A stretch of 64,000 nt of DNA from Alphaproteobacteria bacterium (GCA_965216755.1 CBDCGL010000011.1:3584001-3648000), one strand, 5' to 3'; shown: positions 27,527 through 39,599, counted from the first letter of the stretch. Numbers and translations: made by a program. Notes: generated by a model not told the origin, from the sequence alone.

Positions 27527-28537
27527 ATGCTCATTCGGGTGAATTACGGTCGCAGGCAACGTTTCCGCGCCCGCACGCGTGATCTGACCCTGCAGGGTCG
27601 TGTGAGCGATGCGGTCATGCCGTTGCGCCGCGCCGCGTGGCAGCTCAATGACGCGGCGCCGACGACGTTCTATGTTGAACCGATCGCCGATCCCGGCATT
27701 GATTGGGTCACCCAATACAAGGACTCGCCGGCCGAATTACGGTGTCGCGATCTCGGCGACTTCACCATTGAAATTCCCATTGACCATCCGGCCCTGAGGA
27801 CGCGCGACAATCGCCTGAACATAGATCTGACCGATGCCGAGGGCGCCAATATTGTTGAGTCGGTTCAGTTCGATTTCGATCCGACTCCTGTGCCCCTGCC
27901 GCTTGATCTGACCGATCTAAGTACGGTCTACGATATTCAAGAGATTGGCCAAACCGTGGTCGGTGCCTTCGATGTTGATCGTGCGCAAAACGTCATTCGG
28001 TCGCGGGCGCCGGTGTACCCGGACTCGCTTTTGGTGTTGGGCGCGCCGCACGCCGATCAGGAGGCGACATACAATGTGCGGTTTTTGGATTTCCGTGGCG
28101 TTAAATGGCTCGGCCCAAGTGATTTCTACGTCGGTTTTGAGGACAAGTCACCGCCGATCGGCATCAAGACAGGGTGGTCAAGCGCCGGCATGATGGCACT
28201 CAATCCGGCCGGTGAAGCGCGTTGCTTTATCGCGTGGGGGGATCATTCGGAAACCGACCGTGAATGGGTGGTGGTCACCGACCCGCCCGAGCCGATCAGG
28301 CTCGCCAAAGATGTGTTGTATGCGGTGCGCCACCAAGTCACATTCCGCGACGGCGTCAATCGCTGCCGATTTCGCATTTGGCCCGCTGCTGGGGCTGAGC
28401 CGTCGACATGGTTGTGCACCGAAACCGATGCCGCCGTTGACCGTGCTTTGGTCCATCATTGTCGCGCCTCTTTCGGGTTGTTTCAGCATTCCGGCATGCC
28501 AATCGAGTGGTCCCATATTCGGGTGGAGGCACTGTGA
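27527..28537 (+). CDS. Hypothetical protein, predicted beta-rich, no signal peptide
   Basis: GGGGAG RBS before ATG 27527; long ORF ending 1 nt before the next start; family not recognised. Confidence 0.7.
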   Translation: MLIRVNYGRRQRFRARTRDLTLQGRVSDAVMPLRRAAWQLNDAAPTTFYVEPIADPGIDWVTQYKDSPAELRCRDLGDFTIEIPIDHPALRTRDNRLNIDLTDAEGANIVESVQFDFDPTPVPLPLDLTDLSTVYDIQEIGQTVVGAFDVDRAQNVIRSRAPVYPDSLLVLGAPHADQEATYNVRFLDFRGVKWLGPSDFYVGFEDKSPPIGIKTGWSSAGMMALNPAGEARCFIAWGDHSETDREWVVVTDPPEPIRLAKDVLYAVRHQVTFRDGVNRCRFRIWPAAGAEPSTWLCTETDAAVDRALVHHCRASFGLFQHSGMPIEWSHIRVEAL

Positions 28538-28538
28538 G

Positions 28539-29645
28539 ATGACAAACAATCGTCGTGGCGCGGCCCTGGGTTATCCGGCAGGCGAAGACGATCGGCGCGT
28601 CGACGGCGATATATTAGTGTCTACGATGGCCGCCATATTTGGCGCATGCGGCATGCGCGACCACGATGCCAATGCTTTGGCGCGATCGCTTGTCGCGGCG
28701 GATTTGCGCGGAATCCACAGCCATGGTGTGATGCGTGTCCCGGATTACGTCAAACGCTTGACCAGCGGTGGCGTCGATCCGCGCGGCACGCCACGTATCG
28801 CCAGCGATCGCGGCGGCGCCCTGGTTGTTGATGGCGGCAATAGCATGGGTCAGATCGCGGCATCGTTCGCCATGGCCCAAGCCATTATGCGCGCGAAGTC
28901 CGCAAATGTCGCCGTGGCCGTTGTTGGGAATAGCAACCATTGTGGTGCTATGGATCAATATGCCCTGATGGCCAGCCGGGTGAATATGATTGGTTTGGCG
29001 ACCACCAATGCCTTGCCGACCATGGCGCCTTGGGGCGGTATCGACCGTATTCTCGGGATCAACCCCTTGGCAATTGCCCTGCCGGCAGGTGAGCATCATG
29101 ACTTGGTGATCGATAGCGCGTTCAGCCCGTCGGCGCGCGGCAAGATCGAAGTGTATGGTCAAAAGGGCTTGGCGTTGCCCGACAATTGGGCCACCGATGG
29201 CGACGGTCTTCCGACCACCGATCCGGCGGCTGCCTTGGCCGGGCTGATGCGCCCGATCGGTGATTACAAAGGATCCGGTCTGGCGCTCATGATGGGGTTG
29301 TTGTCGACCATGCTTTCCGGTGCCCAGTATGGCACGGCGCTCGGCAGCTTAGAGGACGGCGCCAAGGCCGGCGCCGATGGCCATTTCTTTGCCGCCCTGA
29401 ACATTGCCGGTTTCTGCGACATTGGGCTGTTCAAGCGCCGGGTCGACGATGTTGTGCGCGAGATCCATGGCGGCCGGCGTGCCCCCGGCGCCGATCGCAT
29501 CTTTGTCCCTGGCGAACGCGAAGCCGAACTGGAGGCGCTTTACGGCACCGGCGGCATCCCCCTTAACGCGGCGACGCTTGACGGTATCAGCGAAGCCGCC
29601 GGCCAGTTCGGTGTCGACGTCGAGGCTCTGAACCTGAGCGCGTGA
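28539..29645 (+). CDS. Ldh_2 family (type 2 malate/L-lactate/sulfolactate dehydrogenase-like) oxidoreductase
   Basis: ADLRGIHSHG, NSNHCGA, APWGG..LGINP, GDYKGSGLA, PGERE. Confidence 0.9.
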   Translation: MTNNRRGAALGYPAGEDDRRVDGDILVSTMAAIFGACGMRDHDANALARSLVAADLRGIHSHGVMRVPDYVKRLTSGGVDPRGTPRIASDRGGALVVDGGNSMGQIAASFAMAQAIMRAKSANVAVAVVGNSNHCGAMDQYALMASRVNMIGLATTNALPTMAPWGGIDRILGINPLAIALPAGEHHDLVIDSAFSPSARGKIEVYGQKGLALPDNWATDGDGLPTTDPAAALAGLMRPIGDYKGSGLALMMGLLSTMLSGAQYGTALGSLEDGAKAGADGHFFAALNIAGFCDIGLFKRRVDDVVREIHGGRRAPGADRIFVPGEREAELEALYGTGGIPLNAATLDGISEAAGQFGVDVEALNLSA

Positions 29646-29730
29646 TAGCGTCGTTCGCGCCGGGGCCTTCACTGTTGGCCTGTCGGGCGATTTGGCCGAA
29701 TTGCATAGACGGTCACTAAGTCTTTGATGC

Positions 29731-29764
29731 TAGACACAACGCATCGCGACGCAATAGTGTAACA
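29731..29764 (+). promoter_or_regulatory. Candidate sigma70 promoter with an overlapping Zur-like box
   Basis: TAGACA(29731)-18 nt-TAGTGT(29755). CGCAATA-G-TGTAACA (29750-29764) matches 10/14 positions of TGTTATA-n-TATAACA. Upstream of a Zn-type ABC operon. Confidence 0.5.
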
Positions 29765-29823
29765 AATTGGCCGCGACCACCCGTTTAAGACTCCGAATGG
29801 CGTTCACAGGAAAAGGCACCGAT

Positions 29824-30276
29824 TTGATTCGTCTCCGACGCACGCGCTGGTTGGCGTGGTTGGGAATCGTCTGCCTGGTCCACGGGTGGACGCATATCGC
29901 CTTGCATGCGCTCGGCGGCGAGGGGACGGGCCACTTTGCGTGGGGCCCCGGCCATGCCGAAACGTTCGCCCACATCTCTGATGCCGCGGTCGCTCACGAT
30001 CACCATGGTTTCGCGGCCTTTGGGCATGCCGATCACCCATGCGATGGCGTCCATGCGTCAGAGCACAGCGACCATCGGCCGCAAACGCCTAGCGATCCCC
30101 ATGCCGGCGACGGCGACCAGTGTTTCTTGGCCAAACATCCGCCGACAACGCTGTGTCCTTTGCCGTCGAGCGCCGGACAGCAAGTTGCGGCGCAGGCCAC
30201 ACAGCCGGTCCCGAATGTCGTTCGGGGCGATCATCATTCGTTTGTATTCCCGATCCGCGCACCGCCAATCGCCTGA
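29824..30276 (+). CDS. His-rich DUF2946-like leader protein with C-terminal RAPP ribosome-arrest motif
   Basis: AGGAAAAGG RBS before TTG 29824 (alternative ATG 29797); basic and hydrophobic N-terminus; 18 His in 150 aa; ends FPIRAPPIA-stop. Confidence 0.75.
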   Translation: MIRLRRTRWLAWLGIVCLVHGWTHIALHALGGEGTGHFAWGPGHAETFAHISDAAVAHDHHGFAAFGHADHPCDGVHASEHSDHRPQTPSDPHAGDGDQCFLAKHPPTTLCPLPSSAGQQVAAQATQPVPNVVRGDHHSFVFPIRAPPIA

Positions 30277-30363
30277 TCAACGCAAACGGCGCGACGGCTG
30301 AACGCCGCCATGACGGCGCTGTCACCCGCACCGCGCCTTCTATAAACATGATCAGCGAAAGGA
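30269..30363 (+). promoter_or_regulatory. Predicted mRNA stem-loop linking the RAPP-ORF stop codon to the RBS region of the next gene
   Basis: TCGC(C)TGATCA 30269-30279 pairs with TGATCAGCGA 30349-30358. Nested helices GGCGCG/CGCGCC and CGCCG/CGGCG. SD AAAGGA at 30358-30363. Confidence 0.55.
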
Positions 30364-30370
30364 CCAACAC

Positions 30371-31822
30371 ATGGCACATGCCACGTGCTGGCGCGCCGGC
30401 ATATTGCTGGCGGCGACCATGGTGTTTGGGCACGAAGTTCATATTGCCCAAGCCCAAGACGATGCAGCGGCGCTCAAGGCCGAGGTGGAGCAAATCCGCG
30501 AAGAAATGCGGACCAGTCAAGAGGCCTATCAGTCGCAAATCGGCGACCTGATGTCGCGCATTCAACAACTCGAAGCGCAAAATGCCGCTTCTTCGCAGGC
30601 GTCAAGCACGACGCCAGGAACCTTTCAATTCGACTCGCGGGGCAGCGATGCCAGCTTCGGGATCGGTTTCAATATCGATGGTGTGGCCGGCGGCTCTTCG
30701 GCCGGCGACGAGATCCTGAAGGCGGGCGAGGTTGGGCTGCAAGGCGGCGCGCACGACCCAAACCGCAATGGTTTCACATTGCAAGCGGCCGAGCTTTCCC
30801 TTGTGGGCGTGGTGGATCCCTATTTTGACGCGCGCGCGACGGTGTTATTTCAAATCGACCAGAGCGGCGAAACAGTTCTCGAACTTGAAGAGGCGTTCGC
30901 CAAAACTCGTTTTCTGCCCGGCGGATTGCAGCTCACGGCCGGACAGTTCTATTCGCCATTCGGGCGCAAGAATTCGGTCCACGTGCACGCTCAGGATTTC
31001 GTCGACCAGCCCTTTATCATCACACGCATGTTCGGTGGTGACGGTCAGCGCCAAGTTGGCGCCAACCTGTCTTGGCTGACCCCTTTGCCGTGGTACTCCG
31101 AATTGTCCTTGGCAGTACAGAATTCGAACGGAGAAACAATGCCGAGTTTCGGTGGCGAAGACGAGGGCATTGCCGAGTTCGAGAACGTGATCGGCCAACA
31201 GCGAAATTTTTCCGACTTGGTCTACACCGGGCGTTGGTTGAACGGGTTTGACCTTTCCGACACGATCAGCGTCAACGTCGGTGCTTCGATATCGACCGGA
31301 CCAAACCGCACGGGGCCCGACAACAGAACGACCATTTTTGGTGGTGATGTGTACGCCAAATGGGTCGCGCCGAATGCGGTGCGTGGCTTCCCCTTTGTTT
31401 CGTTCGAGAGTGAAGTGATCGCGCGGCACTATGAGGCCGGCGATATCAACGACACGGGTCGCATTGATCTCGACGATTGGGGTTTTTACGCCCAAGCGCT
31501 GTACGGCTTTCAAGCCGGTTGGGTCGCGGGCCTACGCTTTGGCTACGCCGACGGCGATTCCGGCTCGGATAACTCGATCGACAACGCCACCGACCTGAAC
31601 CGTTCGTCACGTTACCGAATCTCGCCAAATATCACGTGGTACCCGACGGAGTGGAGCAAGATCCGGCTCCAGTACAACCATGATTGGTCGGAAGCTCTGC
31701 CCAGCTCAGGTCTGTCGGACGACGCCGACCCGATCACCGGCACCTATGATCGCCATACGGCCGATTCGATCTGGCTCCAACTCGGTATCGCGCTGGGCGC
31801 GCACGGTGCCCACGAATTTTGA
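30371..31822 (+). CDS. Outer-membrane beta-barrel of the zinc-uptake-associated type
   Basis: Signal peptide, coiled coil, amphipathic strands, HVH motif (NSVHVHAQDFVDQP), C-terminal GAHGAHEF with terminal Phe. Confidence 0.8.
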   Translation: MAHATCWRAGILLAATMVFGHEVHIAQAQDDAAALKAEVEQIREEMRTSQEAYQSQIGDLMSRIQQLEAQNAASSQASSTTPGTFQFDSRGSDASFGIGFNIDGVAGGSSAGDEILKAGEVGLQGGAHDPNRNGFTLQAAELSLVGVVDPYFDARATVLFQIDQSGETVLELEEAFAKTRFLPGGLQLTAGQFYSPFGRKNSVHVHAQDFVDQPFIITRMFGGDGQRQVGANLSWLTPLPWYSELSLAVQNSNGETMPSFGGEDEGIAEFENVIGQQRNFSDLVYTGRWLNGFDLSDTISVNVGASISTGPNRTGPDNRTTIFGGDVYAKWVAPNAVRGFPFVSFESEVIARHYEAGDINDTGRIDLDDWGFYAQALYGFQAGWVAGLRFGYADGDSGSDNSIDNATDLNRSSRYRISPNITWYPTEWSKIRLQYNHDWSEALPSSGLSDDADPITGTYDRHTADSIWLQLGIALGAHGAHEF

Positions 31823-31831
31823 GGTCGTTGA

Positions 31832-32755
31832 ATGAAACCAACATTTGTGAGATGGGTGGGAGGGCTATTGGCCCTCCCCTTCTTTGCCCTGCAAACACCG
31901 GCGTATGCCGAATTTTTCATTGTGACCACGACCACCGATCTGGCGGCGATTGCCACTGAGGTTGGCGGCGATTTGGTATCGGTCAAAAGCTTGGCGCCCG
32001 GAACCCGCGATTTTCATTATTTGGCTGCCAAGCCAAGCATGAAGCGCGTCGTACGCGACGCCGATCTCGTGCTCGCCGTGGGCGCCGACCTGGAGGTTGG
32101 CTGGCTGCCGCTGGTTCTGGAAGGTTCGCGCAATCCCGGGATTCTGCCAGGTGCGCCGGGCTATTTGGACCTATCGTCCACGGTCACGTTACTTGGCGTC
32201 GTCAGCGGCCCGGTCAATCGGGCAATGGGTGACATCCATCCAGACGGCAATCCACATTATTGGCTCGATCCACGCAACGGTATGGCCATTGGACACGCGA
32301 TTGCCGATAGGCTGGGTACACTCGATCCCGACAATGCCACGCGCTATCAGGCCCAGGCCGAGGCCTTTGCCAAACGGCTTGGCGAAAGCTTTGCCGCATG
32401 GCAAGACCAGGTCGCGTTCCTGCGCGGTCGGAAGTTGATCTCCTACCACCGCTCCTTCACTTACTTGGCGGCCGCCTTCGGATTTGAAATTGTCGGCGAG
32501 ATCGAACCGATACCAGGCGTGGATCCGACCGCCAATCATTTGCGAGACCTGGTCGACCGAATCGAACAAGAAGACATCGCCATGATCATTATGGAACCAT
32601 ATTACGAGCAGGATACTGCGGCCTTTCTCAAACGGTCCACGGGGATCGCCACGGCGACGATTCCCAGCTCGGTTGGCGGGATGCCCGACGTCGAGACGTA
32701 CACCGAATTGTTTGAGTACATCGTCGCGGCGTTGCGTCAGGCCAACGCCGGCTAA
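31832..32755 (+). CDS. Metal ABC transporter substrate-binding protein (cluster A-I, ZnuA-like)
   Basis: DFHY, GDIHPDGNPHYWLDP, SYHRSFTY, IEPIPGVDPT. Confidence 0.9.
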   Translation: MKPTFVRWVGGLLALPFFALQTPAYAEFFIVTTTTDLAAIATEVGGDLVSVKSLAPGTRDFHYLAAKPSMKRVVRDADLVLAVGADLEVGWLPLVLEGSRNPGILPGAPGYLDLSSTVTLLGVVSGPVNRAMGDIHPDGNPHYWLDPRNGMAIGHAIADRLGTLDPDNATRYQAQAEAFAKRLGESFAAWQDQVAFLRGRKLISYHRSFTYLAAAFGFEIVGEIEPIPGVDPTANHLRDLVDRIEQEDIAMIIMEPYYEQDTAAFLKRSTGIATATIPSSVGGMPDVETYTELFEYIVAALRQANAG

Positions 32756-32771
32756 ATCCGTGCCGGGGCCA

Positions 32772-33350
32772 ATGGTGGACCGCACCAGCGATCTGTTGAT
32801 CGAAATTGCGGACCTTTGCGCCGGCTATGCGCGGCCGGTTGTTGGCCCCGTCTCATTCACCGTGCGCGCGGGCGACGTTGTCGCAATATCCGGCCCCAAC
32901 GGCGCCGGCAAATCGACTATGTTGCGGGCGCTGATCGGCGAAGCCACCATATTTTCGGGTGCCATCCGACGCCGCGCATCGCTTCACATTTCCTATCAGG
33001 CACAACGTTTTCCCGAATTCGGCGAATCGCCGCTCACCGGCGGCGACGTGCTCGCCGCCGCGGGTGCCAACCGCGATGCCGTGGGCGAGCCGGTGCGGTC
33101 ATGGCTAAAGTTGCGTCTTGACCGGATGAGCAGCGGTCAACGGCAACAGGTCTTTGTTTGGTCGGTGTTGGCTGCGCCGGCGGACCTCGTGTTGCTCGAC
33201 GAGCCCACGAACAATCTTGATCCTGAAGCCGAAGCTCGTCTCGAGACCATGATTGACGCGGCAGGTCGCGACCGTGCCGTGATCCTGATTAGCCACAACT
33301 CCCAGTTTGCCAAACGTATCTGTGGTCGGATCGTCCGGCTCGCGCCATGA
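32772..33350 (+). CDS. Metal ABC transporter ATP-binding protein (ZnuC-like, short)
   Basis: GPNGAGKST, variant signature MSSGQRQ, LLDEPTNNLD, ISH. Confidence 0.85.
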   Translation: MVDRTSDLLIEIADLCAGYARPVVGPVSFTVRAGDVVAISGPNGAGKSTMLRALIGEATIFSGAIRRRASLHISYQAQRFPEFGESPLTGGDVLAAAGANRDAVGEPVRSWLKLRLDRMSSGQRQQVFVWSVLAAPADLVLLDEPTNNLDPEAEARLETMIDAAGRDRAVILISHNSQFAKRICGRIVRLAP

Positions 33351-34150
33351 GCGATATCATTCCGATTGATCCGTTGTTCCGGGTTCCGTTTGCAACCGGC
33401 TTGCTGATCGCAGGGGCAGTGTCTTTGCTCGGGCCCATGGTTCGCTTGCGCGGGGAATGGCTGGGCGCGTTGAGCTATACCCAGGCGGCCGCAGCCGGCG
33501 CCGTGATCGGCACCATCGCCGGACTACCGCCCATGGCCGCTGCCGCTGCCACGGGCGCCTTTGCCGCTATTCTAAAAGCAATTTTGCACCAACACGGCAA
33601 CGACTATCACGGGCTGGTCATCGTGGTTGGTTGGACAATCATGATTCTGGCGATGGCGAATAGTGTCCACGCTAGCTTTATCGGGCAAGCGCTCATCGAC
33701 GGACAGCTTTACTTTGCGGACCTTTGGCGATTTGGCGGCGCCTTGATCGTCGCGGTTGGGCTCATGATTCTGAACCTCACCTTGGCACGCAAAATGCTGA
33801 CCTACAGTGTGTTCGCCGAAACAGCGCGCGCCAACAACGCGCCGGTGCGGCGTCACGTGCTGACCTTCGATGTCGCCGTGGCCATTGCGTTGGGCGTCGC
33901 CGCGTCGACCATGGGCATCATGGCGGCGTTCGCATTGGCTTTGTTGCCCGCCTGGATCACCTTCGCGGTGGCGGCGTCTTGGCGCCAAGCTGTCTGGCTC
34001 AGCGTAGGGCTGTCGCTTGCGGCATATATGGCCGCGTTTTACGTGGCGCTGGTGTTAGACCAGCCGTTCGGTCCGGTCTTTGTCGCCACGCTTGTCCTCT
34101 TGTTGCCAATACGCTGGCTCGCCAGGCGCAGCGTTCAGATTCGGGAATGA
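33347..34150 (+). CDS. Metal ABC transporter permease (ABC-3/ZnuB-like)
   Basis: Polytopic hydrophobic protein translationally coupled to the ATPase; GIMAAFALALLPA, LDQPFGP. Confidence 0.8.
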   Translation: MSDIIPIDPLFRVPFATGLLIAGAVSLLGPMVRLRGEWLGALSYTQAAAAGAVIGTIAGLPPMAAAAATGAFAAILKAILHQHGNDYHGLVIVVGWTIMILAMANSVHASFIGQALIDGQLYFADLWRFGGALIVAVGLMILNLTLARKMLTYSVFAETARANNAPVRRHVLTFDVAVAIALGVAASTMGIMAAFALALLPAWITFAVAASWRQAVWLSVGLSLAAYMAAFYVALVLDQPFGPVFVATLVLLLPIRWLARRSVQIRE

Positions 34151-34189: not shown

Positions 34190-35449
34190 TCAATCGTAAG
34201 TGCGCACGTCGTCGATGACCTTACCGTCGTTGGCAAGGCTGCCTGGTGCGACCAGTGTCACCGTGCCGCGCAGTTTGCACACCGCCTGTAGGGTCGCGGC
34301 AATTTGCGCTTCCAGATCGGCGCTGCCGGCGTCGGTTTCGCAATGCAGGGTCATGACATCGACATGGTCGACGCTGTCGACCACCAAACGCGCTTTGCCG
34401 ATTTCATCATGGCGCGCCACGACTTGCGCGATTTGCCCGGGATGGACAAACATGCCCTTCACCTTTGTGGTTTGATCCGCGCGTCCCATCCACCCCTTGA
34501 TACGCATATTGGTGCGTCCACATGGTGACGCGCCGGCCATCACCGCCGACATGTCGCCGGTGGCGAAGCGGATTAACGGGTAGACCGGGTTCAGCGCGGT
34601 TACCACCACTTCGCCGACCTCGCCGTCGGGTACCGGATCGCCGGTGCCCGGGCGGACGATTTCGACGATCACGCCTTCGTCGACAACCATGCCTTCGCGC
34701 GCCGGTGTTTCATAGGCGACCAAGCCCAGATCGGCGGTGCCATAGGATTGCAGAACGGTCACGCTGCGGCTGGCGAAATCGGCGCGCAGGCTTTCCGGCA
34801 AGGCCTCGCCGCCGACCGCCGCATGGGTCAGGCTGCCGGCATCGATCCCAAGCTCGCCCGCTTTCTCCAACAGAATACGCAGGAATGAAGGTGTGCCGAC
34901 ATAACGATTGGGACGGACGGCGCCAATCACCTGCACTTGCTGTTCGGTATTGCCGACACCACCCGGGATGACAGCGCAGCCACAGGCATGGGCGCCCGTC
35001 TCCATCATGTGGCCGGCCGGTGTCAGGTGATAGGCGAAGCAGTTGAGTGCCACGTCGCCGGGGCGAAAGCCGGCCGCGAACAGGGCGCGGCCCATGCGCC
35101 AGAAATCGCCCGCGCGCATGCCGGGTTCATAGATCGGCCCGGGCGACGAAAAAATCCAGCTGACATCGCCGGTGGCCTTGGTGGTCAAACCGCCAAACGG
35201 TCGCGTCGCCGCCTGGCGTTCGCCCAACGAGGATTTGCGTGTCACCGGCAGTTGGGCCAACGCGGCGCGGTCGGTGATATCGCCGGGGGCCACGCCATGC
35301 AGTATTTCCGCCCATCCCGGCGCGTCGGCTTGCGCCGTGGTGATTTGTTCCTGCAAGGCATCAAACTGGGCGCGTTCGCGCATGTCGGGATCGCGGGTCT
35401 CCAAGGCGTCGAAAAAGGCACCGTTAGCTACGGCCGCATCATTGCTCAT
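34190..35449 (-). CDS. Phenylacetate--CoA ligase-like AMP-binding enzyme
   Basis: LPVTRKS, SPGPIYEP, YGTADLG, IRFATGD, GRADQTTKVKGMFVHP. Confidence 0.85.
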   Translation of the reverse strand: MSNDAAVANGAFFDALETRDPDMRERAQFDALQEQITTAQADAPGWAEILHGVAPGDITDRAALAQLPVTRKSSLGERQAATRPFGGLTTKATGDVSWIFSSPGPIYEPGMRAGDFWRMGRALFAAGFRPGDVALNCFAYHLTPAGHMMETGAHACGCAVIPGGVGNTEQQVQVIGAVRPNRYVGTPSFLRILLEKAGELGIDAGSLTHAAVGGEALPESLRADFASRSVTVLQSYGTADLGLVAYETPAREGMVVDEGVIVEIVRPGTGDPVPDGEVGEVVVTALNPVYPLIRFATGDMSAVMAGASPCGRTNMRIKGWMGRADQTTKVKGMFVHPGQIAQVVARHDEIGKARLVVDSVDHVDVMTLHCETDAGSADLEAQIAATLQAVCKLRGTVTLVAPGSLANDGKVIDDVRTYD

Positions 35450-35481
35450 GTTCGTCTCCGCTGGCGACGTTCCGGCCCCGG

Positions 35482-36336
35482 TCACAGCCAACGCTTGCGT
35501 CGCTTAAAGGACTTCAGGTTCTTGAACGATTTGCGGGCGTCGTCGCCGTCGGCGCCTTTGCCCAGATAAAATTCTTTGACGTCTTCGTTGTTTTGCAGCT
35601 CGTCGGACGAGCCGTCCAACACGATTTTGCCGCTCTCCATGATGTAGCCGAAGCCGGCCGCCTGCAACGCCAGGCGGGCATTCTGTTCGACCAACAAAAT
35701 CGTGATGCCTTGGTCACGGTTGATGCGCCGAATGATTGAGAACACTTCCTTGACCAACAGCGGCGACAGTCCCATGGACGGTTCGTCCATCAAGATCAGT
35801 TCGGGCTTTGCCATCAAGGCGCGGCCAATCGCCAACATCTGTTGCTCGCCGCCCGACAGATAGCCGGCTAATCCAGACCGTTCCTTGAGCCGTGGGAAAT
35901 AGCCGAAGACCATGTCGATGTCATCGGAGATATCGCCTTTGGGGCGTGTGTAGGCGCCAAGTCGTAGATTCTCCAGCACGGTCATGTCGGCGACGATGCG
36001 CCGTCCTTCCATAACCTGGAACACGCCCTTGCGGACGATTTGCTCGGGATCGATGCCGTCGATGCGCTTACCGGCGAAGCGAATATCGCCGCGCGTGACC
36101 TCTCCGTCCTCGGTTTTCAAGAGTCCCGATATGGCCTTCAGCGCGGTTGATTTGCCGGCGCCGTTGGCACCAAGCAGGGCGACAATCTCCCCCTTCGGCA
36201 CCGCCAGGCTGACGCCACGCAGCACCAAAATAACGTCGCTATAGACAACCTCGATATTGTTGACAGACAGAAGCGGCGCCGCGGCGGTCTCCGCGGCGAC
36301 ACCGTCGGTGGCCGCGTTGGCTACAGCCCCAGCCAT
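35482..36336 (-). CDS. Branched-chain/aromatic acid ABC ATP-binding protein (LivF-like)
   Basis: GANGAGKST, LSGGEQQMLAIGRAL, DEPSMGLSP. Start approximate. Confidence 0.9.
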   Translation of the reverse strand: MAGAVANAATDGVAAETAAAPLLSVNNIEVVYSDVILVLRGVSLAVPKGEIVALLGANGAGKSTALKAISGLLKTEDGEVTRGDIRFAGKRIDGIDPEQIVRKGVFQVMEGRRIVADMTVLENLRLGAYTRPKGDISDDIDMVFGYFPRLKERSGLAGYLSGGEQQMLAIGRALMAKPELILMDEPSMGLSPLLVKEVFSIIRRINRDQGITILLVEQNARLALQAAGFGYIMESGKIVLDGSSDELQNNEDVKEFYLGKGADGDDARKSFKNLKSFKRRKRWL

Positions 36337-37562
36337 TCCGGCCGCCGCTCCAATTGGGCGATATAGATTTCTTCCATGCCGCGCACGTCGCCGGCGACCT
36401 TGCCGCGATAGACCTTGACCGTTGTGGTCCCGCGGTGATCGGTGTCGGTCCAGGTCGACGGCAGACAGACACCTTCGAGCCCGTTCGGCACCCAGTCGGC
36501 GCGACTTTCCATCGCGGCCTTGACATTGGCGCCCGTGATGCCGCCGGCGGCATCGGCCGCTTCCAGCGCCTCTTTCATGAAGAACGCCGAGCAGATACCG
36601 CGCAGGTAATGCAACCGCCGCGGTTCCGCGCCCGACGGGTCCGACATCTTGGAGATCTCGCGCACCAGCGCCATGCCCGGCACGTCGTCGCCCCACCGGG
36701 CCGCGCCGACCACCCATACCACGCCGTCCGCGGCGTCGCCCGCTGCCTCCATGGCATTTTCGTCATAGCCCCAAATGTTGGCCATGAATTGGACGTCGAC
36801 GCCAACCGTGGCGCACGATTTCATAACCGAAATGTTGGATCCGGTGGTGTTGGCGAGAAACGCGTAATTGGCGCCGGCCTCCTGCAGGGTCAGGCATTGC
36901 GCCTTAAAGTCACCCGGTTGCAACGAATACACGATCGTCGGCACAACCTCGAAACCGAGTTCGGTTGCATAGGATTCGCAAGCCTTTTTCGGCGCGTTCG
37001 GATAGGGATGGTTGTCGCCCATATGAACATAGCGGGGTGTGCCGGCCTCGCCGCGCGCATCCCAGTCCTGCCGCGCCCATTCGACCAACGCGCGGCAGCC
37101 ATCCGAATAAGACGGCCCATAGAAAAAGTTATAGGGGGCGGCTGCCTGCGTTTCCGGCCCAATCCCGGTCGGATCGGTGAGATGGCCGGAATAAGAGGCG
37201 GAGAAGTAGGGGATCTCGTCGCGTGCAACGAACTTGACCAAGGCCTCCGTGTCGGCGGTGCCCCAACCCTGGATCGCGGCGACATCGCCTTGCGAGGTCC
37301 AGCGCTTGTAGGCGGAAATGGCCTGCGGCGCCTTGTAGGAATAGTCAATCGCGTCGACGTTGAGCGGCTTGCCGTTGACGCCGCCATTGGCATTGATCCA
37401 CGCCAAGGCGTCGGTGATGCCCTGCGTATAGACCTTTCCGACGCCTGATGTCGGGCCGCTCAGGTCCATCAGCTGGCCGACAAAGATGGAATCTTGTGCG
37501 CCCGCAGCGCCAGACGCGGCCAACACCGCCGCACATGTGATGGCAATGCGCATGGTTTTCAT
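36321..37562 (-). CDS. ABC substrate-binding protein (LivJ/K-like fold)
   Basis: Signal peptide, DLSGPTS, INANGGVNG; GGAGG RBS. Confidence 0.88.
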   Translation of the reverse strand: MKTMRIAITCAAVLAASGAAGAQDSIFVGQLMDLSGPTSGVGKVYTQGITDALAWINANGGVNGKPLNVDAIDYSYKAPQAISAYKRWTSQGDVAAIQGWGTADTEALVKFVARDEIPYFSASYSGHLTDPTGIGPETQAAAPYNFFYGPSYSDGCRALVEWARQDWDARGEAGTPRYVHMGDNHPYPNAPKKACESYATELGFEVVPTIVYSLQPGDFKAQCLTLQEAGANYAFLANTTGSNISVMKSCATVGVDVQFMANIWGYDENAMEAAGDAADGVVWVVGAARWGDDVPGMALVREISKMSDPSGAEPRRLHYLRGICSAFFMKEALEAADAAGGITGANVKAAMESRADWVPNGLEGVCLPSTWTDTDHRGTTTVKVYRGKVAGDVRGMEEIYIAQLERRPEWLGL

Positions 37563-37622
37563 CGCGAATCCTCCATAGCCCGCTTTGCTTAACGGCCGAT
37601 CCTCTGCTGCTCGACGCCCGCT

Positions 37623-38687
37623 TCAATAAGAGAACGGATACAGCTTCCAATAGGCCTTTATTTGTCGCCAACGGTGGGCCAACCCGTCGGGTTCGAAAAT
37701 CAAGAATAACACGATGGCCAAGCCGATCGCAGCCTCCTTCAAATAGGCAAGGCCGCTGGTGATGGCGGGTATGTTGCCCCAGCTGGTGGCGCCGATCAGG
37801 CGCACACTGCCTTCCATCACTTCGGGCAGCGCGACGATAAACACAGTGCCCAGTAGCGTTCCCATCACGGATCCCAAGCCGCCGATGATGATCATGCCCA
37901 AGAACTGAATCGACAGTAGAATGGTGAACGCCTCGACCGAAACGAAGCCGAGATAGTGGCCATACAGTGCGCCGCCGATGCCGGCATAAAACGACGAAAC
38001 GCCGAACGCCATGATCCGATATTTGGTTAAATTGACGCCCATCATTTCGGCTGACAGGTAATGGTCGCGCAAGGCGACAAAGGCACGGCCTTCGCGCGTG
38101 CGCAGCAAATTCGCGGCGCCGAAATACATGACGATGAGATAGGCCAAGACGACGTAGAAAAAGCTTTGATCGCTGATCGCCTGCCAGCCGAAGATTGAAA
38201 ACGGTTCCGCCAGAGCGCCGGCGGCGCCACCGGAAAACCACCCAGCGCGGGCGAAAAAATCCTGCAAGATGAACTGCGCGGCGAAAGTCGCGATGGCGAG
38301 ATAGAGACCCTTGATGCGTCCGGCCGGGATGCCGACGATCAGACCCACGGCCGTGGTCCACAACGCCGCAAGCGGTATCGCGAAGAAAACCGGAATGCCG
38401 AAATTGTTGTTCAGATAGGCGGAGGCGAACGCGCCAAAACCGAAGAATGCCGCGTGGCCGATCGAGATTTGTCCGGTGAAGCCGGTCAATAGATTGAGGC
38501 CAAGCGCGGCGATGCCGAAATAGCCGATCTGGATCAGCAGGTTGAGGTAGTAGTTGTTGAGCACCATTGGCGCCAACGCCAACACCACCAAGCCGAGCCA
38601 AAGCGCGCGCCGCGACCAGGGGGTGGCGAAGATGGTCGTGTCGCCCTTGTAGGTGGTCTTGAACTCGCCGCAATTGATCATCGACAC
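37623..38687 (-). CDS. ABC permease (LivM-like)
   Basis: GLNLLTGFTGQISIGHAAF, GLYLAIAT, IIGGLGS. Confidence 0.9.
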   Translation of the reverse strand: MSMINCGEFKTTYKGDTTIFATPWSRRALWLGLVVLALAPMVLNNYYLNLLIQIGYFGIAALGLNLLTGFTGQISIGHAAFFGFGAFASAYLNNNFGIPVFFAIPLAALWTTAVGLIVGIPAGRIKGLYLAIATFAAQFILQDFFARAGWFSGGAAGALAEPFSIFGWQAISDQSFFYVVLAYLIVMYFGAANLLRTREGRAFVALRDHYLSAEMMGVNLTKYRIMAFGVSSFYAGIGGALYGHYLGFVSVEAFTILLSIQFLGMIIIGGLGSVMGTLLGTVFIVALPEVMEGSVRLIGATSWGNIPAITSGLAYLKEAAIGLAIVLFLIFEPDGLAHRWRQIKAYWKLYPFSY

Positions 38688-38705
38688 GACGCGTATGCCC
38701 CACGG

Positions 38706-39599
38706 TCAAACACGCTCGATGTCCTCGGTGCCGAACAAGCCATAGGGTTTGATCATCAAAATGATGATCAGCACGTAGAACGGCGCCACTTGCGACAGGC
38801 CGCCATAGTGCAGAAACTGGCTGTCCACCCATTCGGCCAGCGCCTCGAGCACGCCAATGATCAGGCCCCCAACAACGCCGCCGACGATCGAGTCCAGACC
38901 ACCCAAAATGACCGCCGGAAACACTTTGATGCCGAAAAACGACAATGCCGAGGAAACGCCGTTGACCATGCCGACCACGATTCCCGCCAACGCCGAAACA
39001 ACTGCGGAAATCGCCCACGATGCCGCGAACACACGTTTGATCGACACACCCAGCGACTGCGCCACTTGTTGATCGAAGGCGGTCGCGCGCATCGCCAGGC
39101 CAAGGCGCGAATACTGAAAAAAGTAGGCAAACGCTGCCATAATGGCGAGCGCGACGACCGCGCTCATCAAATAGATGGTTTGCACCTGGAGACCCAACAC
39201 GGAAACCGACTCGGCCGCGAAGACCTGCGGAAACGGTTTCACGAACACGCCGAACATCCACTTCATGATCGCCTGGAAGAAAATCGACAATCCGATGGTG
39301 ACCATGATCACCGAGATGATCGGTTCGCCGATCATCGGCCGCAGCACGACCACCTGCAGCACGATGCCAAACAGCGTCATGAAAGCGAACGTCAGCAGGC
39401 AGGCCCAAAAGAACGGCACCTGCAGATCGACCATGACCCACCATGCCACCCAGGCGCCGACCAGCAAAAACTCACCTTGGGCGAAATTGACGATCTGCGA
39501 GGCCTTGTAGATCAGCACAAAGCTCATCGCGACCAGGGCATACAGCGTGCCGACGATAACGCCGTTGACCAGAAGTTGTACCAGTAGGCTACCGCTCAT
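38706..39599 (-). CDS. ABC permease (LivH-like)
   Basis: VNFAQGE, GLAMRATA, ILGGLDS, KPYGLFG. Confidence 0.9.
   Translation of the reverse strand: MSGSLLVQLLVNGVIVGTLYALVAMSFVLIYKASQIVNFAQGEFLLVGAWVAWWVMVDLQVPFFWACLLTFAFMTLFGIVLQVVVLRPMIGEPIISVIMVTIGLSIFFQAIMKWMFGVFVKPFPQVFAAESVSVLGLQVQTIYLMSAVVALAIMAAFAYFFQYSRLGLAMRATAFDQQVAQSLGVSIKRVFAASWAISAVVSALAGIVVGMVNGVSSALSFFGIKVFPAVILGGLDSIVGGVVGGLIIGVLEALAEWVDSQFLHYGGLSQVAPFYVLIIILMIKPYGLFGTEDIERV

What the first reader, a model, noticed from the sequence alone, without database searches (positions are those of the whole stretch)
29731..34150. Candidate His-based RAPP arrest-peptide metal sensor controlling an outer-membrane barrel and a Zn-type ABC importer
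Seen: a 150-aa ORF with a basic/hydrophobic export signal, an HxxxHxxxH stretch, 18 His, no CxxC, a low-complexity spacer of about 45 aa after C-F-L-A-K-H, and R-A-P-P (30256-30267) two residues before the stop. It heads an operon of barrel, SBP, ATPase and permease. Known: RAPP/RAGP motifs stall ribosomes (SecM, ApdA, ApdP). DUF2946 leaders CruR (Bordetella) and CutF (Rhodobacter) use signal peptide + CxxC + C-terminal RAPP-like motif to couple periplasmic copper to translation of the next gene. Inference: this is the same architecture rebuilt with His ligands for Zn, Ni or Co. Stalling would turn uptake on, and metal-induced folding during secretion would relieve the stall. I know of no characterised non-copper member.
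Basis: partly seen in the sequence, partly recalled or inferred. Interest (0 to 1): 0.88.

Follow-up and report, generated by a model that had tools for sequence, protein, structure and literature searches.

The report
RAPP arrest-peptide leader of zinc-uptake operon
A small membrane-anchored leader peptide ending in the ribosome-stalling motif RAPP sits in front of an outer-membrane porin and a zinc-type ABC importer, and probably switches their translation on or off according to metal supply, a copper-sensing trick here apparently re-used for zinc.

Summary
It heads porin, ZnuA-type SBP, ATPase and permease genes. A profile search found only 22 relatives among 1.84 billion representatives. 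All 22 keep R[AG]PP near the C-terminus, and 19 of 21 aligned end exactly two residues later. Invariant residues are H37, C109, R154, P156 and P157 (H33 in at least 90%), with Cys to Arg fixed at 45 residues. So it is not purely His-based. In 8 of 11 loci the leader's last codons and stop pair with the next gene's Shine-Dalgarno region, against 9 of 109 control gene pairs. A ribosome stalled on RAPP would cover that arm. A paralogue in the same genome heads zrgA/DUF3299. Vibrio-type ZrgD (DUF2607), of unknown function, has the same layout (4 of 4). Pfam DUF2946 and DUF2607 do not match this ORF. Profile comparison aligns only the tail. Non-copper CutF-like leaders were already predicted in 2023. 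I call it a new zinc-linked variant of the CruR/CutF kind. Stalling, the metal and the polarity are untested.

The parts
29731..29758 (+). Promoter-like site TAGACA-16 nt-AATAGT
   Evidence: 1 site found, 0.3 expected from shuffles. This is a consensus match only.
29797..30276 (+). Leader ORF, 159 aa from ATG (alternative TTG starts at 29824 = 150 aa and 29767 = 169 aa). It ends ...FPIRAPPIA-TGA.
   Evidence: P0001. Family of 22 representatives. Alignment A3.
29818..29925 (+). N-terminal basic stretch and single long helix (residues 8-43), a putative N-in membrane anchor or uncleaved signal
   Evidence: AF2 model: helix 8-43, with block pLDDT 93, 97, 88 for residues 11-40 and 48-74 for the rest. 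No signal-peptide predictor was available.
29881..29907 (+). H29-x3-H33-x3-H37 at the distal end of the helix. H37 is invariant and H33 is at least 90% conserved.
29932..30114 (+). Variable His-rich spacer (12 of the 18 His). It is present only in the barrel-linked close subgroup.
   Evidence: read from the sequence.
30121..30138 (+). C109-F-L-A-K-H. The Cys is invariant and sits at the first position of the CxxC seen in relatives (here CxxA).
   Evidence: Cys to Arg offset is 45 in 16 of 21, and 44-46 in the other five by the Cys aligned with C109 (in P0005 this is the first Cys of CVLC, 48 from Arg in the raw sequence).
30256..30267 (+). R154-A-P-P157 arrest motif. The expected stall has Pro156 in the P site and Pro157 in the A site.
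   Evidence: Invariant R, P, P. The stall position is inferred from the CruR toeprint in PMC12992588 (passage read).
30265..30279 (+). 5' arm of the closing helix (CCAAUCGCCUGAUCA). It covers the last Pro codon, I, A, the UGA stop and 3 nt more.
   Evidence: It lies within about +3..+17 of the P-site codon, which is the expected footprint of a stalled ribosome (inference).
30288..30337 (+). Inner GC-rich hairpin of the 94-nt intergenic region
   Evidence: 118-nt fold -41.8 kcal/mol, z = -3.4, 0 of 200 shuffles as stable.
30349..30362 (+). 3' arm of the closing helix (UGAUCAGCGAAAGG). It includes the GG of the barrel gene's Shine-Dalgarno (AAAGGA 30358-30363, 7 nt before the ATG).
30371..31822 (+). 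Outer-membrane porin-type barrel: signal peptide, coiled coil (28-74), 16 strands, C-terminal GAHGAHEF
   Evidence: Pfam BBP2 27.4 bits against cut-off 26.2. AF2 pLDDT 83, pTM 0.75. Foldseek top hits are OmpC-type porins, OprP/OprO and DcaP.
31832..32755 (+). ZnuA-family (cluster A-I) substrate-binding protein with invariant H62, H136, H142, H206
   Evidence: PF01297 9e-51. Best PDB hit is an ABC-type zinc-uptake binding protein, 2ov1/1pq4. Alignment A6.
32772..33350 (+). ABC transporter ATPase (ORF opens at 32673; the likely start is the ATG at 32772)
   Evidence: PF00005 2.6e-17; AztA-like below cut-off. The start is read from the translation.
33347..34150 (+). ABC-3 (ZnuB-type) permease, overlapping the ATPase stop by 4 nt. 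This is the end of the operon.
   Evidence: PF00950 1.2e-9. The next ORF is on the minus strand.

Best explanation
The ORF is a real, conserved cis-acting leader peptide of the RAPP arrest-peptide class.

Shown by computation:
- It has an N-terminal membrane helix carrying H33-x3-H37.
- It has a variable His-rich linker.
- It has an invariant Cys exactly 45 residues before an invariant R-A-P-P, then two residues and the stop.
- The mRNA from the last Pro codon to just past the stop pairs with the Shine-Dalgarno region of the porin gene.

Inferred mechanism:
- The ribosome arrests with Pro156 in the P site, as shown for CruR.
- Its footprint then covers the 5' arm of the helix.
- The Shine-Dalgarno stays free, and the porin is translated. 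The tightly packed SBP, ATPase and permease genes probably follow.
- When the leader is finished and the ribosome leaves, the helix re-forms and translation shuts off.

Inferred signal: zinc. The nascent chain would bind it through H33/H37 and C109, perhaps with H114 and the His-rich linker, at the moment C109 has just left the ribosome or translocon. The resulting folding or pulling force would release the arrest. Uptake would then be ON when zinc is scarce and OFF when it is sufficient, which is the CruR polarity.

My odds:
- arrest leader acting through the helix: about 0.7
- zinc as the metal: about 0.6
- metal releases rather than strengthens the arrest: about 0.55
For: Conservation of the leader:
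- A profile of 5 leaders found 22 proteins at E<=1e-3 among 1.84e9 representatives. 22 of 22 have R[AG]PP near the C-terminus.
- In A3 (21 sequences; P0018 left out), 19 of 21 end exactly 2 residues after the motif. Cys to Arg is 45 in 16 of 21. H37, C109, R154, P156 and P157 are invariant.

Synteny:
- Leaders ending R[AG]PP lie upstream of barrel homologues in 4 of 6 genome-contig loci that have upstream DNA.
- L020 has one upstream of a 48%-identical barrel, and L019 has one ending RDPP upstream of a cut gene whose coiled-coil N-terminus looks like the barrel's.
- 7 of 9 distant barrel loci of a 400-genome phylum sample have one.
- All 9 of those barrels end in the GAHGAH-type signature and are followed by a 297-322 aa ORF. 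The three of these scanned (L062, L064, L065) match PF01297. A ZnuB-like permease ORF follows in 8 of the 9.

The helix:
- MFE folds pair the arm (Pro1 codon to stop+9) with -22..-1 of the next gene by at least 9 bp in 8 of 11 loci, with 12 bp in the window.
- The same holds in 9 of 109 same-strand gene pairs of this genome.
- The arm sequences differ between loci.
- The helix is also present in 4 of 4 ZrgD loci.

Zinc:
- The SBP is best matched by zinc-binding proteins of the PDB.
- H62, H136, H142 and H206 are invariant in 9 cassette SBPs.
- The paralogue P0002 (RIRAPPHI-stop) heads ZrgA (PF10986, 6e-50) and DUF3299.
- In G004 a family member heads an ABC ATPase plus a MacB-like permease.
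- DUF2607 is ZrgD, the first gene of the zinc-limitation-induced zrg operon (75- to 205-fold; PMC9817125, Table 1 passage). It ends R[AS]PP plus 2-4 residues, has Cys to Arg = 45, and precedes ZrgA in 4 of 4 loci.
- One barrel homologue is named by a source 'zinc-regulated TonB-dependent outer membrane receptor'. This is only a name and was not tested.
- The same genome has a separate CxxC...RGPP leader in an operon with the copper chaperone PCuAC.

Precedent, from passages I read:
- RAPP arrest in CruR, and RAPP/RGPP exclusion from proteomes (PMC9426467; PMC12992588).
- A stem-loop that hides the Shine-Dalgarno and is opened by stalling in CutF (PMC9973294; abstract of 10.1101/2025.02.05.636593).
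Against: - There are no expression, translation or stalling data.
- Pfam PF11162 and PF10795 do not match this ORF at E<=1. The six-frame PF11162 search of the whole genome did not list it even at E<=10.
- 6 of 21 family members give only sub-threshold PF11162 hits, best E 0.0015.
- hhalign against DUF2946 aligns 12 tail columns (probability 59%). Against DUF2607 it aligns 13 (probability 4.5%).
- The arm-to-SD duplex energy is not exceptional for the window alone. 11% of 559 control SD regions pair as well. For L009, L012 and L023 the figure is 38-75%.
- Pro-Pro codons are C-rich and pair with any SD to some degree.
- L003 and L021 show no helix, though their downstream starts are uncertain.
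- RNAalifold on a MAFFT alignment found no consensus helix.
- Loci are related, so the counts overstate independence.
- L014, L015 and 2 of 9 distant barrel loci show no such leader.
- Relatives carry CxxC, and DUF2946 is linked to copper, so the metal could be another one.
- CutF has the opposite polarity.
- No box like the one at this genome's znuA/znuC promoter lies upstream. The best match has 7 mismatches. So there is no independent zinc-regulon evidence.
Confidence: 0.6

Rival explanations
1. Same arrest leader, but the readout is CruR-like. The stalled ribosome blocks Rho loading in the intergenic region, so control is by transcription termination rather than (or in addition to) unmasking of the Shine-Dalgarno.
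For: CruR, the best-studied import-linked RAPP leader, works this way (PMC9426467, abstract and discussion passages). No intrinsic terminator-like site lies in 29500-30500, which leaves room for a factor-dependent one.
Against: The 94-nt intergenic region is strongly structured (z = -3.4), which is not what a Rho loading site usually looks like (general knowledge). The conserved helix reaches the Shine-Dalgarno in 8 of 11 loci, which a pure Rho mechanism would not require.
Confidence: 0.15
2. Same leader and helix, but with CutF polarity or another metal. Metal binding (Cu, Ni, Co or Mn) to the exported part delays export and strengthens the stall, so the operon is induced by metal.
For: This is the CutF model (PMC9973294, discussion passage). 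Barrel-linked relatives carry CxxC, and one passes the PF11162 cut-off (L063, 24.0 against 23.7 bits). His-only CutF-like leaders were linked to Ni/Co genes (PMC9973294, section 11).
Against: Cluster A-I ABC systems are importers (general knowledge), so induction by plenty would be maladaptive. The SBP has a His3-type site and is best matched by zinc binders. The paralogue and ZrgD head zrgA operons, which are induced by zinc limitation (PMC9817125).
Confidence: 0.15
3. The ORF encodes a working small membrane protein, a ZrgD-like accessory of the transporter. RAPP and the helix give only constitutive translational coupling, and no metal is sensed by the nascent chain.
For: ZrgD has been treated as a possible accessory protein of the Zrg system (PMC9820375, discussion passage). 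Any ribosome reaching the stop would open the helix.
Against: RAPP/RGPP are among the most avoided tetrapeptides in bacterial proteomes and arrest robustly (PMC12992588, sections 12-13). The fixed 45-residue Cys-to-Arg distance and the 2-residue tail are hard to explain for a mature protein whose remaining sequence is poorly conserved (mean column identity 24%). zrgD knockouts had no growth phenotype (PMC9820375).
Confidence: 0.08
4. Chance ORF in GC-rich DNA that happens to end in RAPP.
For: 46 of 46,010 frames of 60 aa or more in this genome have R[AG]PP in the last 12 residues. Most look like non-coding frames.
Against: 22 conserved relatives share the invariant H, C, R, P, P pattern. The leader recurs upstream of orthologous barrels, and a paralogue exists in the same genome.
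Confidence: 0.02

Closest known systems
CruR (Bp2923) of Bordetella pertussis, Pfam DUF2946
   Same: It is a small first gene of a metal-import operon. It has an N-terminal export or anchor segment, a Cys motif at a fixed distance from a C-terminal RAPP, and a few residues before the stop. The expected polarity is the same: stall means ON when metal is scarce.
   Different: CruR has CxxC, with the first Cys 49 residues before Arg, and a 3-residue tail. Here the motif is CxxA with Cys to Arg = 45, a 2-residue tail and an extra HxxxH. The PF11162 HMM does not match. CruR acts through Rho termination and responds to copper. Here a helix masking the Shine-Dalgarno is conserved and the context points to zinc.
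CutF of Rhodobacter capsulatus (CutF-like proteins)
   Same: It is a co-translationally exported leader. A C-terminal proline motif stalls the ribosome, and stalling melts a stem-loop that hides the next gene's Shine-Dalgarno. The published survey already noted Cys, His and mixed motifs, and some non-copper contexts.
   Different: CutF has CxxxC and a PPP-type motif that depends on EF-P. Copper increases its stalling, and it controls a detoxifying oxidase. Here the motif is RAPP and the operon is for uptake. At 159 aa from the ATG, this ORF is just over the survey's <150 aa filter.
ZrgD (DUF2607), first gene of the Vibrio zrg zinc-uptake operon
   Same: It is about 100 aa with a single transmembrane helix ending in His residues and a C-[QE]-L-F motif. 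Cys to Arg is exactly 45. It ends R[AS]PP plus 2-4 residues and is followed by zrgA, with a helix from the stop region to the Shine-Dalgarno (4 of 4 loci). The window's paralogue occupies the same position before zrgA.
   Different: There is no significant sequence or profile match (PF10795 not hit; hhalign probability 4.5%). Three of the four have RSPP rather than RAPP. ZrgD has not been described as an arrest peptide in the papers found. The window's own copy heads a porin-ZnuABC cassette, not zrgA.
SecM, ApdA and ApdP (Sec-monitoring arrest peptides)
   Same: They use RAPP or RAGP arrest at the peptidyl-transferase centre near the C-terminus of a small exported protein. The stall exposes the downstream gene's ribosome-binding site, and a pulling force on the nascent chain releases it.
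   Different: Those peptides monitor the secretion machinery and head sec genes. Here conserved His and Cys and the metal-uptake context point to a metal as the releasing signal.

Membership tests
Pfam DUF2946 (PF11162) / CruR family | Match to the PF11162 HMM above the cut-off (23.7 bits) | tested here: not met
   No hit at E<=1. The six-frame search of the genome at E<=10 did not hit this ORF. 6 of 21 family members give sub-threshold hits, best E 0.0015.
Pfam DUF2946 (PF11162) / CruR family | Conserved CXXC motif | tested here: not met
   The window has C-F-L-A. 17 of 21 family members lack the second Cys, and 4 have CxxC.
Pfam DUF2946 (PF11162) / CruR family | C-terminal RAPP a few residues before the stop | tested here: met
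   RAPP at 30256-30267, followed by 2 residues. In 17 sequences (16 PF11162 matches of this class plus P0003) the tail is mostly 3 residues.
Pfam DUF2946 (PF11162) / CruR family | Fixed CXXC-to-RAPP spacing (45 intervening residues in CruR, conserved to within 1-2) | tested here: inconclusive
   The spacing is fixed here too, but at a different value. Cys to Arg is 45 in 16 of 21, against 49-51 for the first Cys in 15 of the 17 sequences of that comparison set (48 in L031; L046 carries extra Cys).
Pfam DUF2946 (PF11162) / CruR family | Full-length profile homology | tested here: not met
   hhalign of A3 against A4 aligns only 12 C-terminal columns, probability 59%.
CutF-like proteins (operational definition of PMC9973294, section 10) | [quoted passage not shown] | tested here: inconclusive
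   PP and the 94-nt spacing are met. The length is 159 aa from ATG, or 150 aa from TTG, so it is at or over the limit.
CutF-like proteins (operational definition of PMC9973294, section 10) | N-terminal signal peptide; reachable by their jackhmmer iterations | not testable with these tools
   A basic N-terminus plus a confident helix 8-43 is predicted. No signal-peptide predictor was available and their lists are in closed supplements.
ZrgD / DUF2607 (PF10795) | Match to the PF10795 HMM | tested here: not met
   No hit at E<=1 for the ORF or for any of 21 family members. hhalign probability 4.5%.
ZrgD / DUF2607 (PF10795) | Single-TM small protein encoded directly upstream of zrgA | tested here: inconclusive
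   Met by the paralogue P0002. The window's own copy heads a porin-ZnuABC cassette. The shared layout includes Cys to Arg = 45. The Atlas nearest named cluster is DUF2607, score 0.93, which is a lead only.
RAPP-type ribosome arrest peptides | RAPP/RGPP near the C-terminus of a small secretory or membrane protein encoded upstream of the regulated gene | tested here: met
   These are the features listed in PMC12992588, section 13.
RAPP-type ribosome arrest peptides | Demonstrated translation arrest (peptidyl-tRNA product, toeprint) | not testable with these tools
   This needs in vitro translation. No RNA run holding the locus was listed.
Cluster A-I zinc ABC importer (ZnuABC/AztABC type) | ZnuA-family SBP with three His ligands rather than the His2-Glu-Asp site of Mn binders, plus ABC-3 permease and ATPase | tested here: met
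   PF01297, PF00950 and PF00005. H62, H142 and H206 align with conserved His of the zinc SBP 2ov1/1pq4 and are invariant in 9 SBPs. That these are the ligand positions is recalled, not computed. NCBIfam equivalog cut-offs (AztC, ZnuA) are not reached.

The most novel reading that the evidence does not exclude
This is a nascent-chain zinc sensor. An HxxxH on the membrane helix and a Cys held exactly 45 residues from the peptidyl-transferase centre act as a molecular ruler. When periplasmic (or cytoplasmic) zinc bridges them, the pull releases a RAPP arrest and shuts off translation of zinc-uptake genes. No detectable Zur box is involved.

The same device would explain ZrgD. ZrgD is the gene of unknown function that heads the Vibrio zrg zinc-uptake operon. 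It would also explain the leaders of a widespread GAHGAH-porin/ZnuABC cassette. That would make it the first zinc-responsive arrest peptide.
Probability: 0.4. Interest if true: 0.8.

Novelty: new variant of a known kind. Interest (0 to 1): 0.64.

Why it matters
Metal control by nascent leader peptides has been shown only for copper (CruR, CutF). In bacteria, zinc uptake is thought to be governed almost entirely by the transcription factor Zur.

If this leader works as proposed, three things follow:
- It adds a post-transcriptional layer of zinc control that may sense the periplasm.
- It gives a testable function to ZrgD/DUF2607.
- It links a widespread, unnamed porin family (at least 1930 homologues) to ZnuABC-type importers.

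The rigid Cys-45-RAPP-2-stop geometry, together with the helix that begins inside the stalled ribosome's footprint, gives a compact system for studying how ligand binding to a nascent chain releases an arrest.

Tried and rejected
Searches and tests that led nowhere:
- A word-indexed homology search with the leader found only itself.
- A protein search of 40 relatives' genomes hit 2. Only the profile search and the synteny surveys opened the family.
- Pfam and NCBIfam scans of the leader were empty.
- hhalign against DUF2946 and DUF2607 aligned only the tail.
- Rfam found no family in 29500-30500 at E<=1.
- RNAalifold on a MAFFT alignment of six stop-to-start regions found no consensus helix, because the 3' ends were not aligned in register. 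I therefore relied on per-locus folds with a genome control.
- The duplex-energy test against 559 control SD regions was not significant for the window alone (0.11).

Zur box:
- I took the palindrome at this genome's znuA/znuC intergenic region (C11:1638679) as a model.
- Nothing within 5 mismatches lies upstream of the leader or of its paralogue. The best match has 7 mismatches.
- The model rests on one site, so this is weak evidence.

Expression: no RNA holder was listed for the locus.

Ideas rejected:
- A Sec/YidC-monitoring role, because there is no sec or yidC gene downstream.
- A TonB-dependent receptor reading of the barrel, because it has no plug domain and a 16-strand porin fold.
- A chance ORF (see rivals).

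Not available:
- The supplements of PMC9973294 (File S1, Figs S5-S6) and of PMC12992588 (Appendix figures), which may already list this family or its ZnuA/porin neighbours, were closed and not seen.
- Searches for prior description were made, plus term look-ups. 'Zinc' has 0 occurrences in the main texts of PMC9973294, PMC12992588, PMC9426467 and PMC8456105. None of the 11 papers holding 'ZrgD' or 'DUF2607' appears, by its title, abstract start or the passages I read, to connect them with arrest peptides.

Full report
**What is there.**

On the + strand an open frame runs 29767-30276. Homologue N-termini and the database gene call (P0001, 159 aa) favour ATG 29797.

The protein, numbered from that ATG, reads as follows:
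- It begins with a basic stretch (K6, R12, R14, R15, R17).
- AlphaFold2, run on a 21-sequence alignment, models one confident helix at residues 8-43. Block pLDDT is 93, 97 and 88 for residues 11-40. The rest scores 48-74.
- The helix ends with H29-x3-H33-x3-H37.
- A His-rich spacer follows.
- Then comes C109-F-L-A-K-H, then R154-A-P-P157 (30256-30267), then I-A and TGA.
- It has 18 His and 4 Cys, and no CxxC.

The flanks are these:
- A promoter-like TAGACA-16-AATAGT lies at 29731-29758.
- No Rfam family matches 29500-30500.
- Downstream, tightly packed, lie four genes. They are a barrel (30371-31822), a ZnuA-family binding protein (31832-32755, PF01297 9e-51), an ABC ATPase (likely 32772-33350) and an ABC-3 permease (33347-34150).
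- The next gene is on the other strand.

**Is it more than chance?**

The motif alone is not. In this genome, 32 of 46,010 stop-to-stop frames of at least 60 aa have RAPP in their last 12 residues, and 14 have RGPP. Most of them look non-coding.

Conservation decides the question.
- The word-indexed search found only the protein itself.
- A protein search of 40 related genomes found 2 relatives. One lies upstream of the orthologous barrel and ends HIRAPPAV-stop. The other ends GVRAPPLS-stop.
- A profile of five leaders, scored against 1.84 billion representatives, found 22 proteins at E<=1e-3. All 22 carry R[AG]PP near the C-terminus.
- I aligned 21 of them. P0018, a 413-aa probable gene-call fusion, was left out. 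The fragment P0007 was replaced by its full-length locus copy.
- In that alignment H37, C109, R154, P156 and P157 are invariant. H33, L111 and A155 are at least 90% conserved, against a mean column identity of 24%.
- 19 of 21 end exactly two residues after the motif.
- The Cys-to-Arg distance is 45 in 16 of 21. In the other five it is 44-46, counted from the Cys that the alignment places with C109. P0005 carries CVLC with Cys at 48 and 45 from Arg in the raw sequence, and the alignment places the first of them with C109.

So the family is rare, real and defined by H-x3-H, one Cys, a fixed ruler and RAPP-xx-stop. 'His-based' is not the whole story, because the invariant Cys sits where four relatives still have CxxC.

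**Synteny.**

- I used the barrel as anchor. 7 loci came back from 185,579 species genomes. Of the 6 with upstream DNA, 4 have a leader ending R[AG]PP (L009, L010, L012, L013). L014 and L015 do not. L011 is cut.
- A class-wide search with the leader profile hit 7 of 400 other genomes. One leader sits upstream of a 48%-identical barrel (L020). One precedes a cut gene whose coiled-coil N-terminus looks like the barrel's (L019). Two precede TonB-dependent receptors (L022, L023). Some copies end RDPP.
- In a 400-genome phylum sample, 9 genomes have distant barrel homologues (27-34% identity). All 9 barrels end in the GAHGAH-type signature and are followed by a 297-322 aa ORF. The three of those scanned match PF01297. 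A ZnuB-like permease ORF follows in 8 of the 9.
- 7 of those 9 loci have an upstream small ORF ending R[AS]PP plus 2-4 residues. These have His residues, and six of the seven carry CxxC.
- One of those leaders just passes the PF11162 cut-off (24.0 against 23.7 bits). Two are sub-threshold.

**The barrel.**

- Pfam BBP2 is barely above cut-off.
- An AlphaFold2 model on 45 sequences (pLDDT 83, pTM 0.75) shows a signal helix, a coiled coil at residues 28-74 and 16 strands.
- Foldseek places it with 16-strand porins. These are OmpC-type porins, OprP/OprO, and DcaP. That DcaP also has an N-terminal coiled coil is recalled, not computed.
- H204, H206, H478 and H481 are invariant, and H128 nearly so.
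- It has at least 1930 homologues at E<=1e-10. Most are unnamed. One is named by a source 'zinc-regulated TonB-dependent outer membrane receptor'. The fold has no plug domain, so I read it as a porin.

**The RNA.**

- The 94-nt intergenic region folds stably: -41.8 kcal/mol, z = -3.4, with 0 of 200 shuffles as stable.
- Its closing helix pairs CCAAUCGCCUGAUCA (30265-30279) with UGAUCAGCGAAAGG (30349-30362). The first arm covers the last Pro codon, I, A, UGA and 3 nt more. The second arm contains the GG of the porin gene's Shine-Dalgarno.
- I made the same fold for 11 leader loci. At least 9 pairs form between the stop-proximal arm and -22..-1 of the next gene in 8 of 11, and at least 7 pairs in 9 of 11. 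The values are window 12, L009 9, L010 15, L012 10, paralogue 11, L020 18, L019 14, L022 13, L023 7, L003 2 and L021 0.
- Among 109 same-strand gene pairs of this genome with 60-200 nt spacers and a Shine-Dalgarno, 9 reach 9 pairs and 12 reach 7.
- The arms differ in sequence from locus to locus. Many share C-UGA paired with UCA-G just 5' of the Shine-Dalgarno.

There are caveats:
- Loci are related.
- Pro-Pro codons are naturally anti-Shine-Dalgarno.
- The plain duplex-energy test is unremarkable for the window. 11% of 559 control SD regions pair as well.
- The downstream starts in L003 and L021 are uncertain.
- RNAalifold failed on a poorly anchored alignment.

**How it most likely works.**

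- For CruR, a toeprint puts the two Pro codons of RAPP in the P and A sites (PMC12992588, passage).
- A ribosome so placed here would cover roughly up to 15-16 nt beyond the first P-site base. That figure is general knowledge. It reaches through the stop codon, so it covers almost the whole 5' arm.
- I therefore infer that stalling keeps the helix open and the Shine-Dalgarno free, as shown for CutF and SecM. Completion of the leader would let the helix re-form.
- The exact two-codon tail and the arm position fit this reading.
- For an uptake operon the sensible polarity is that of CruR: stalled and ON without metal, released and OFF with metal.
- The fixed 45 residues would put C109 just outside the ribosome or translocon at the moment of arrest, next to the HxxxH on the membrane helix.
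- Metal bridging could then supply the pulling force. This last step is inference.
- For CruR, sensing was proposed to be cytoplasmic and independent of the signal peptide (PMC9426467). The compartment is therefore open.

**Which metal.**

- The binding protein is best matched by ABC-type zinc-uptake binding proteins in the PDB (2ov1/1pq4, 7e-19).
- H62, H142 and H206 align with their conserved His. With H136 they are invariant in nine cassette SBPs.
- That is the three-His zinc pattern, not the His2-Glu-Asp manganese pattern. The ligand assignment is recalled.
- This genome has a paralogous leader (P0002, 102 aa, RIRAPPHI-stop, same helix). It sits directly upstream of ZrgA (PF10986, 6e-50) and DUF3299.
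- In G004 a family member heads an ABC ATPase plus a MacB-like permease.
- In Vibrio parahaemolyticus the zinc-limitation-induced zrg operon comprises zrgD (DUF2607), zrgA, zrgC, zrgB and zrgE (DUF3299) (PMC9817125, Table 1 passage).
- ZrgD is a 101-aa single-helix protein of unknown function, and its knockout has no phenotype (PMC9820375, passage).
- In 4 of 4 genomes with a DUF2607 hit above cut-off, the protein ends R[AS]PP plus 2-4 residues. It has C-[QE]-L-F exactly 45 residues before the Arg. ZrgA follows it. It shows the stop-to-SD helix with 8-14 pairs.
- This genome also has a third leader, CKAC...RGPPKAV-stop (second Cys 46 residues before the Arg). It sits in an operon with the copper chaperone PCuAC. 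So a copper-type and two zinc-context leaders coexist in one genome.

Against a firm zinc call:
- Barrel-linked relatives keep CxxC.
- No box like the palindrome at this genome's znuA/znuC promoter lies upstream of either leader. The best match has 7 mismatches, and the model rests on one site.

**Comparison with what is known.**

| Family | Cys motif | First Cys to Arg | Tail after motif | HMM match to this ORF |
|---|---|---|---|---|
| This family (A3, 21 sequences) | C-x-L-A, with 4 of 21 CxxC | 45 in 16 of 21 | 2 in 19 of 21 | n/a |
| DUF2946 set (A4: 16 class matches plus P0003) | CxxC | 49-51 in 15 of 17 | mostly 3 | none |
| DUF2607 / ZrgD (4 loci above cut-off) | C-[QE]-L-F | 45 in 4 of 4 | 2-4 | none |

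- 22 of 151 genomes of the class have a PF11162 match.
- 6 of 21 family members give only sub-threshold PF11162 hits.
- hhalign aligns only the last 12 columns against DUF2946 (probability 59%). It aligns 13 columns against DUF2607 (probability 4.5%).
- The ESM Atlas nearest named clusters for the paralogue are DUF2607 (0.93) and DUF2946 (0.92). These are leads only.

I therefore do not file the ORF as a member of either Pfam family. It works like them and sits between them in layout.

**Prior art.**

- The general idea is published. CruR is in PMC9426467. CutF is in PMC9973294, PMC8456105 and the abstract of 10.1101/2025.02.05.636593.
- PMC9973294 also predicts His-only CutF-like clusters next to HupE/UreJ.
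- PMC12992588 surveys RAPP/RGPP small secretory proteins upstream of TonB receptors, YcnI, PCuAC and PepSY genes.
- None of these main texts mentions zinc, ZnuA, porins or ZrgD.
- None of the 11 papers holding 'ZrgD' or 'DUF2607' appears, by its listing or the passages I read, to link them to arrest.
- The supplements were closed and may hold relevant lists.

**Verdict.**

- It is a new, zinc-linked variant of a known kind.
- Its most interesting by-product is the prediction that ZrgD and the leaders of the GAHGAH-porin/ZnuABC cassette are arrest peptides.

Noticed in passing
G000:C11:1096495-1096815 (L016:6996-7304, minus strand): A paralogous 102-aa leader (P0002) ends RIRAPPHI-stop. It lies 94 nt upstream of a ZrgA-family gene (PF10986) followed by a DUF3299 gene. 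A 10-bp perfect stem joins its stop region to the sequence next to the zrgA Shine-Dalgarno.
   Followed up: yes
G000:C11:4816241-4816729 (L017:7742-8227, minus strand): A third leader-like ORF in the same genome (P0003, 161 aa) has CKAC and ends RGPPKAV-stop, with the second Cys 46 residues before the Arg. It lies upstream of ORFs that include a PCuAC copper chaperone. It has a copper-type DUF2946-like layout, although Pfam does not match it.
   Followed up: partly
L055-L058 (G544, G555, G507, G667): DUF2607 (ZrgD) proteins end ARAPPKLS, ARSPPAS, ARSPPVKMT and ARSPPVKNT. Their Cys lies exactly 45 residues before the Arg, and each is followed by ZrgA. ZrgD may be an arrest peptide. No paper found says so.
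   Followed up: partly
G000:C11:1638679-1638697: A palindrome, AATGTTATTATATAACGTT, lies between divergent znuA-like and znuC-like genes, with a Fur-family gene about 2 kb downstream. It is probably this genome's Zur box. Nothing similar lies upstream of the two RAPP leaders.
   Followed up: partly
window 30371-31822: The porin family has invariant His at 204, 206, 478 and 481, near-invariant H128, and several invariant Glu. It also has an N-terminal coiled coil. This may be a metal-selective channel. One database record names a homologue a TonB-dependent receptor, although the fold has no plug.
   Followed up: partly
L021, L027, L028, L029 (G266): One genome carries four leader-like copies ending RDPPIA-stop or apparently broken. 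They sit next to an unnamed 310-aa protein, a cupredoxin-like ORF and a CarboxypepD_reg-domain protein. RDPP may be a functional variant of the arrest motif.
   Followed up: no
L013:1723-2550: A Planctomycetota barrel locus has an upstream ORF with HHHH, CVKC and RGPP at the usual spacing, but 20 more residues follow before the stop. P0014 likewise has a 19-residue tail. The two-residue tail is therefore not universal.
   Followed up: no
P0018 (413 aa): One profile hit carries the leader-like sequence at residues 292-386 of a longer protein. This is probably a gene-calling read-through. It was left out of the alignment.
   Followed up: no
window 28212-29645 and 34190-39444: The flanks are unrelated metabolism genes. 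Upstream is an Ldh_2-family dehydrogenase. Downstream, on the opposite strand, are an AMP-binding ligase and ORFs that, read by eye from the translations and not scanned, look like a branched-chain-type ABC transporter. The leader operon therefore looks like a self-contained insert.
   Followed up: no
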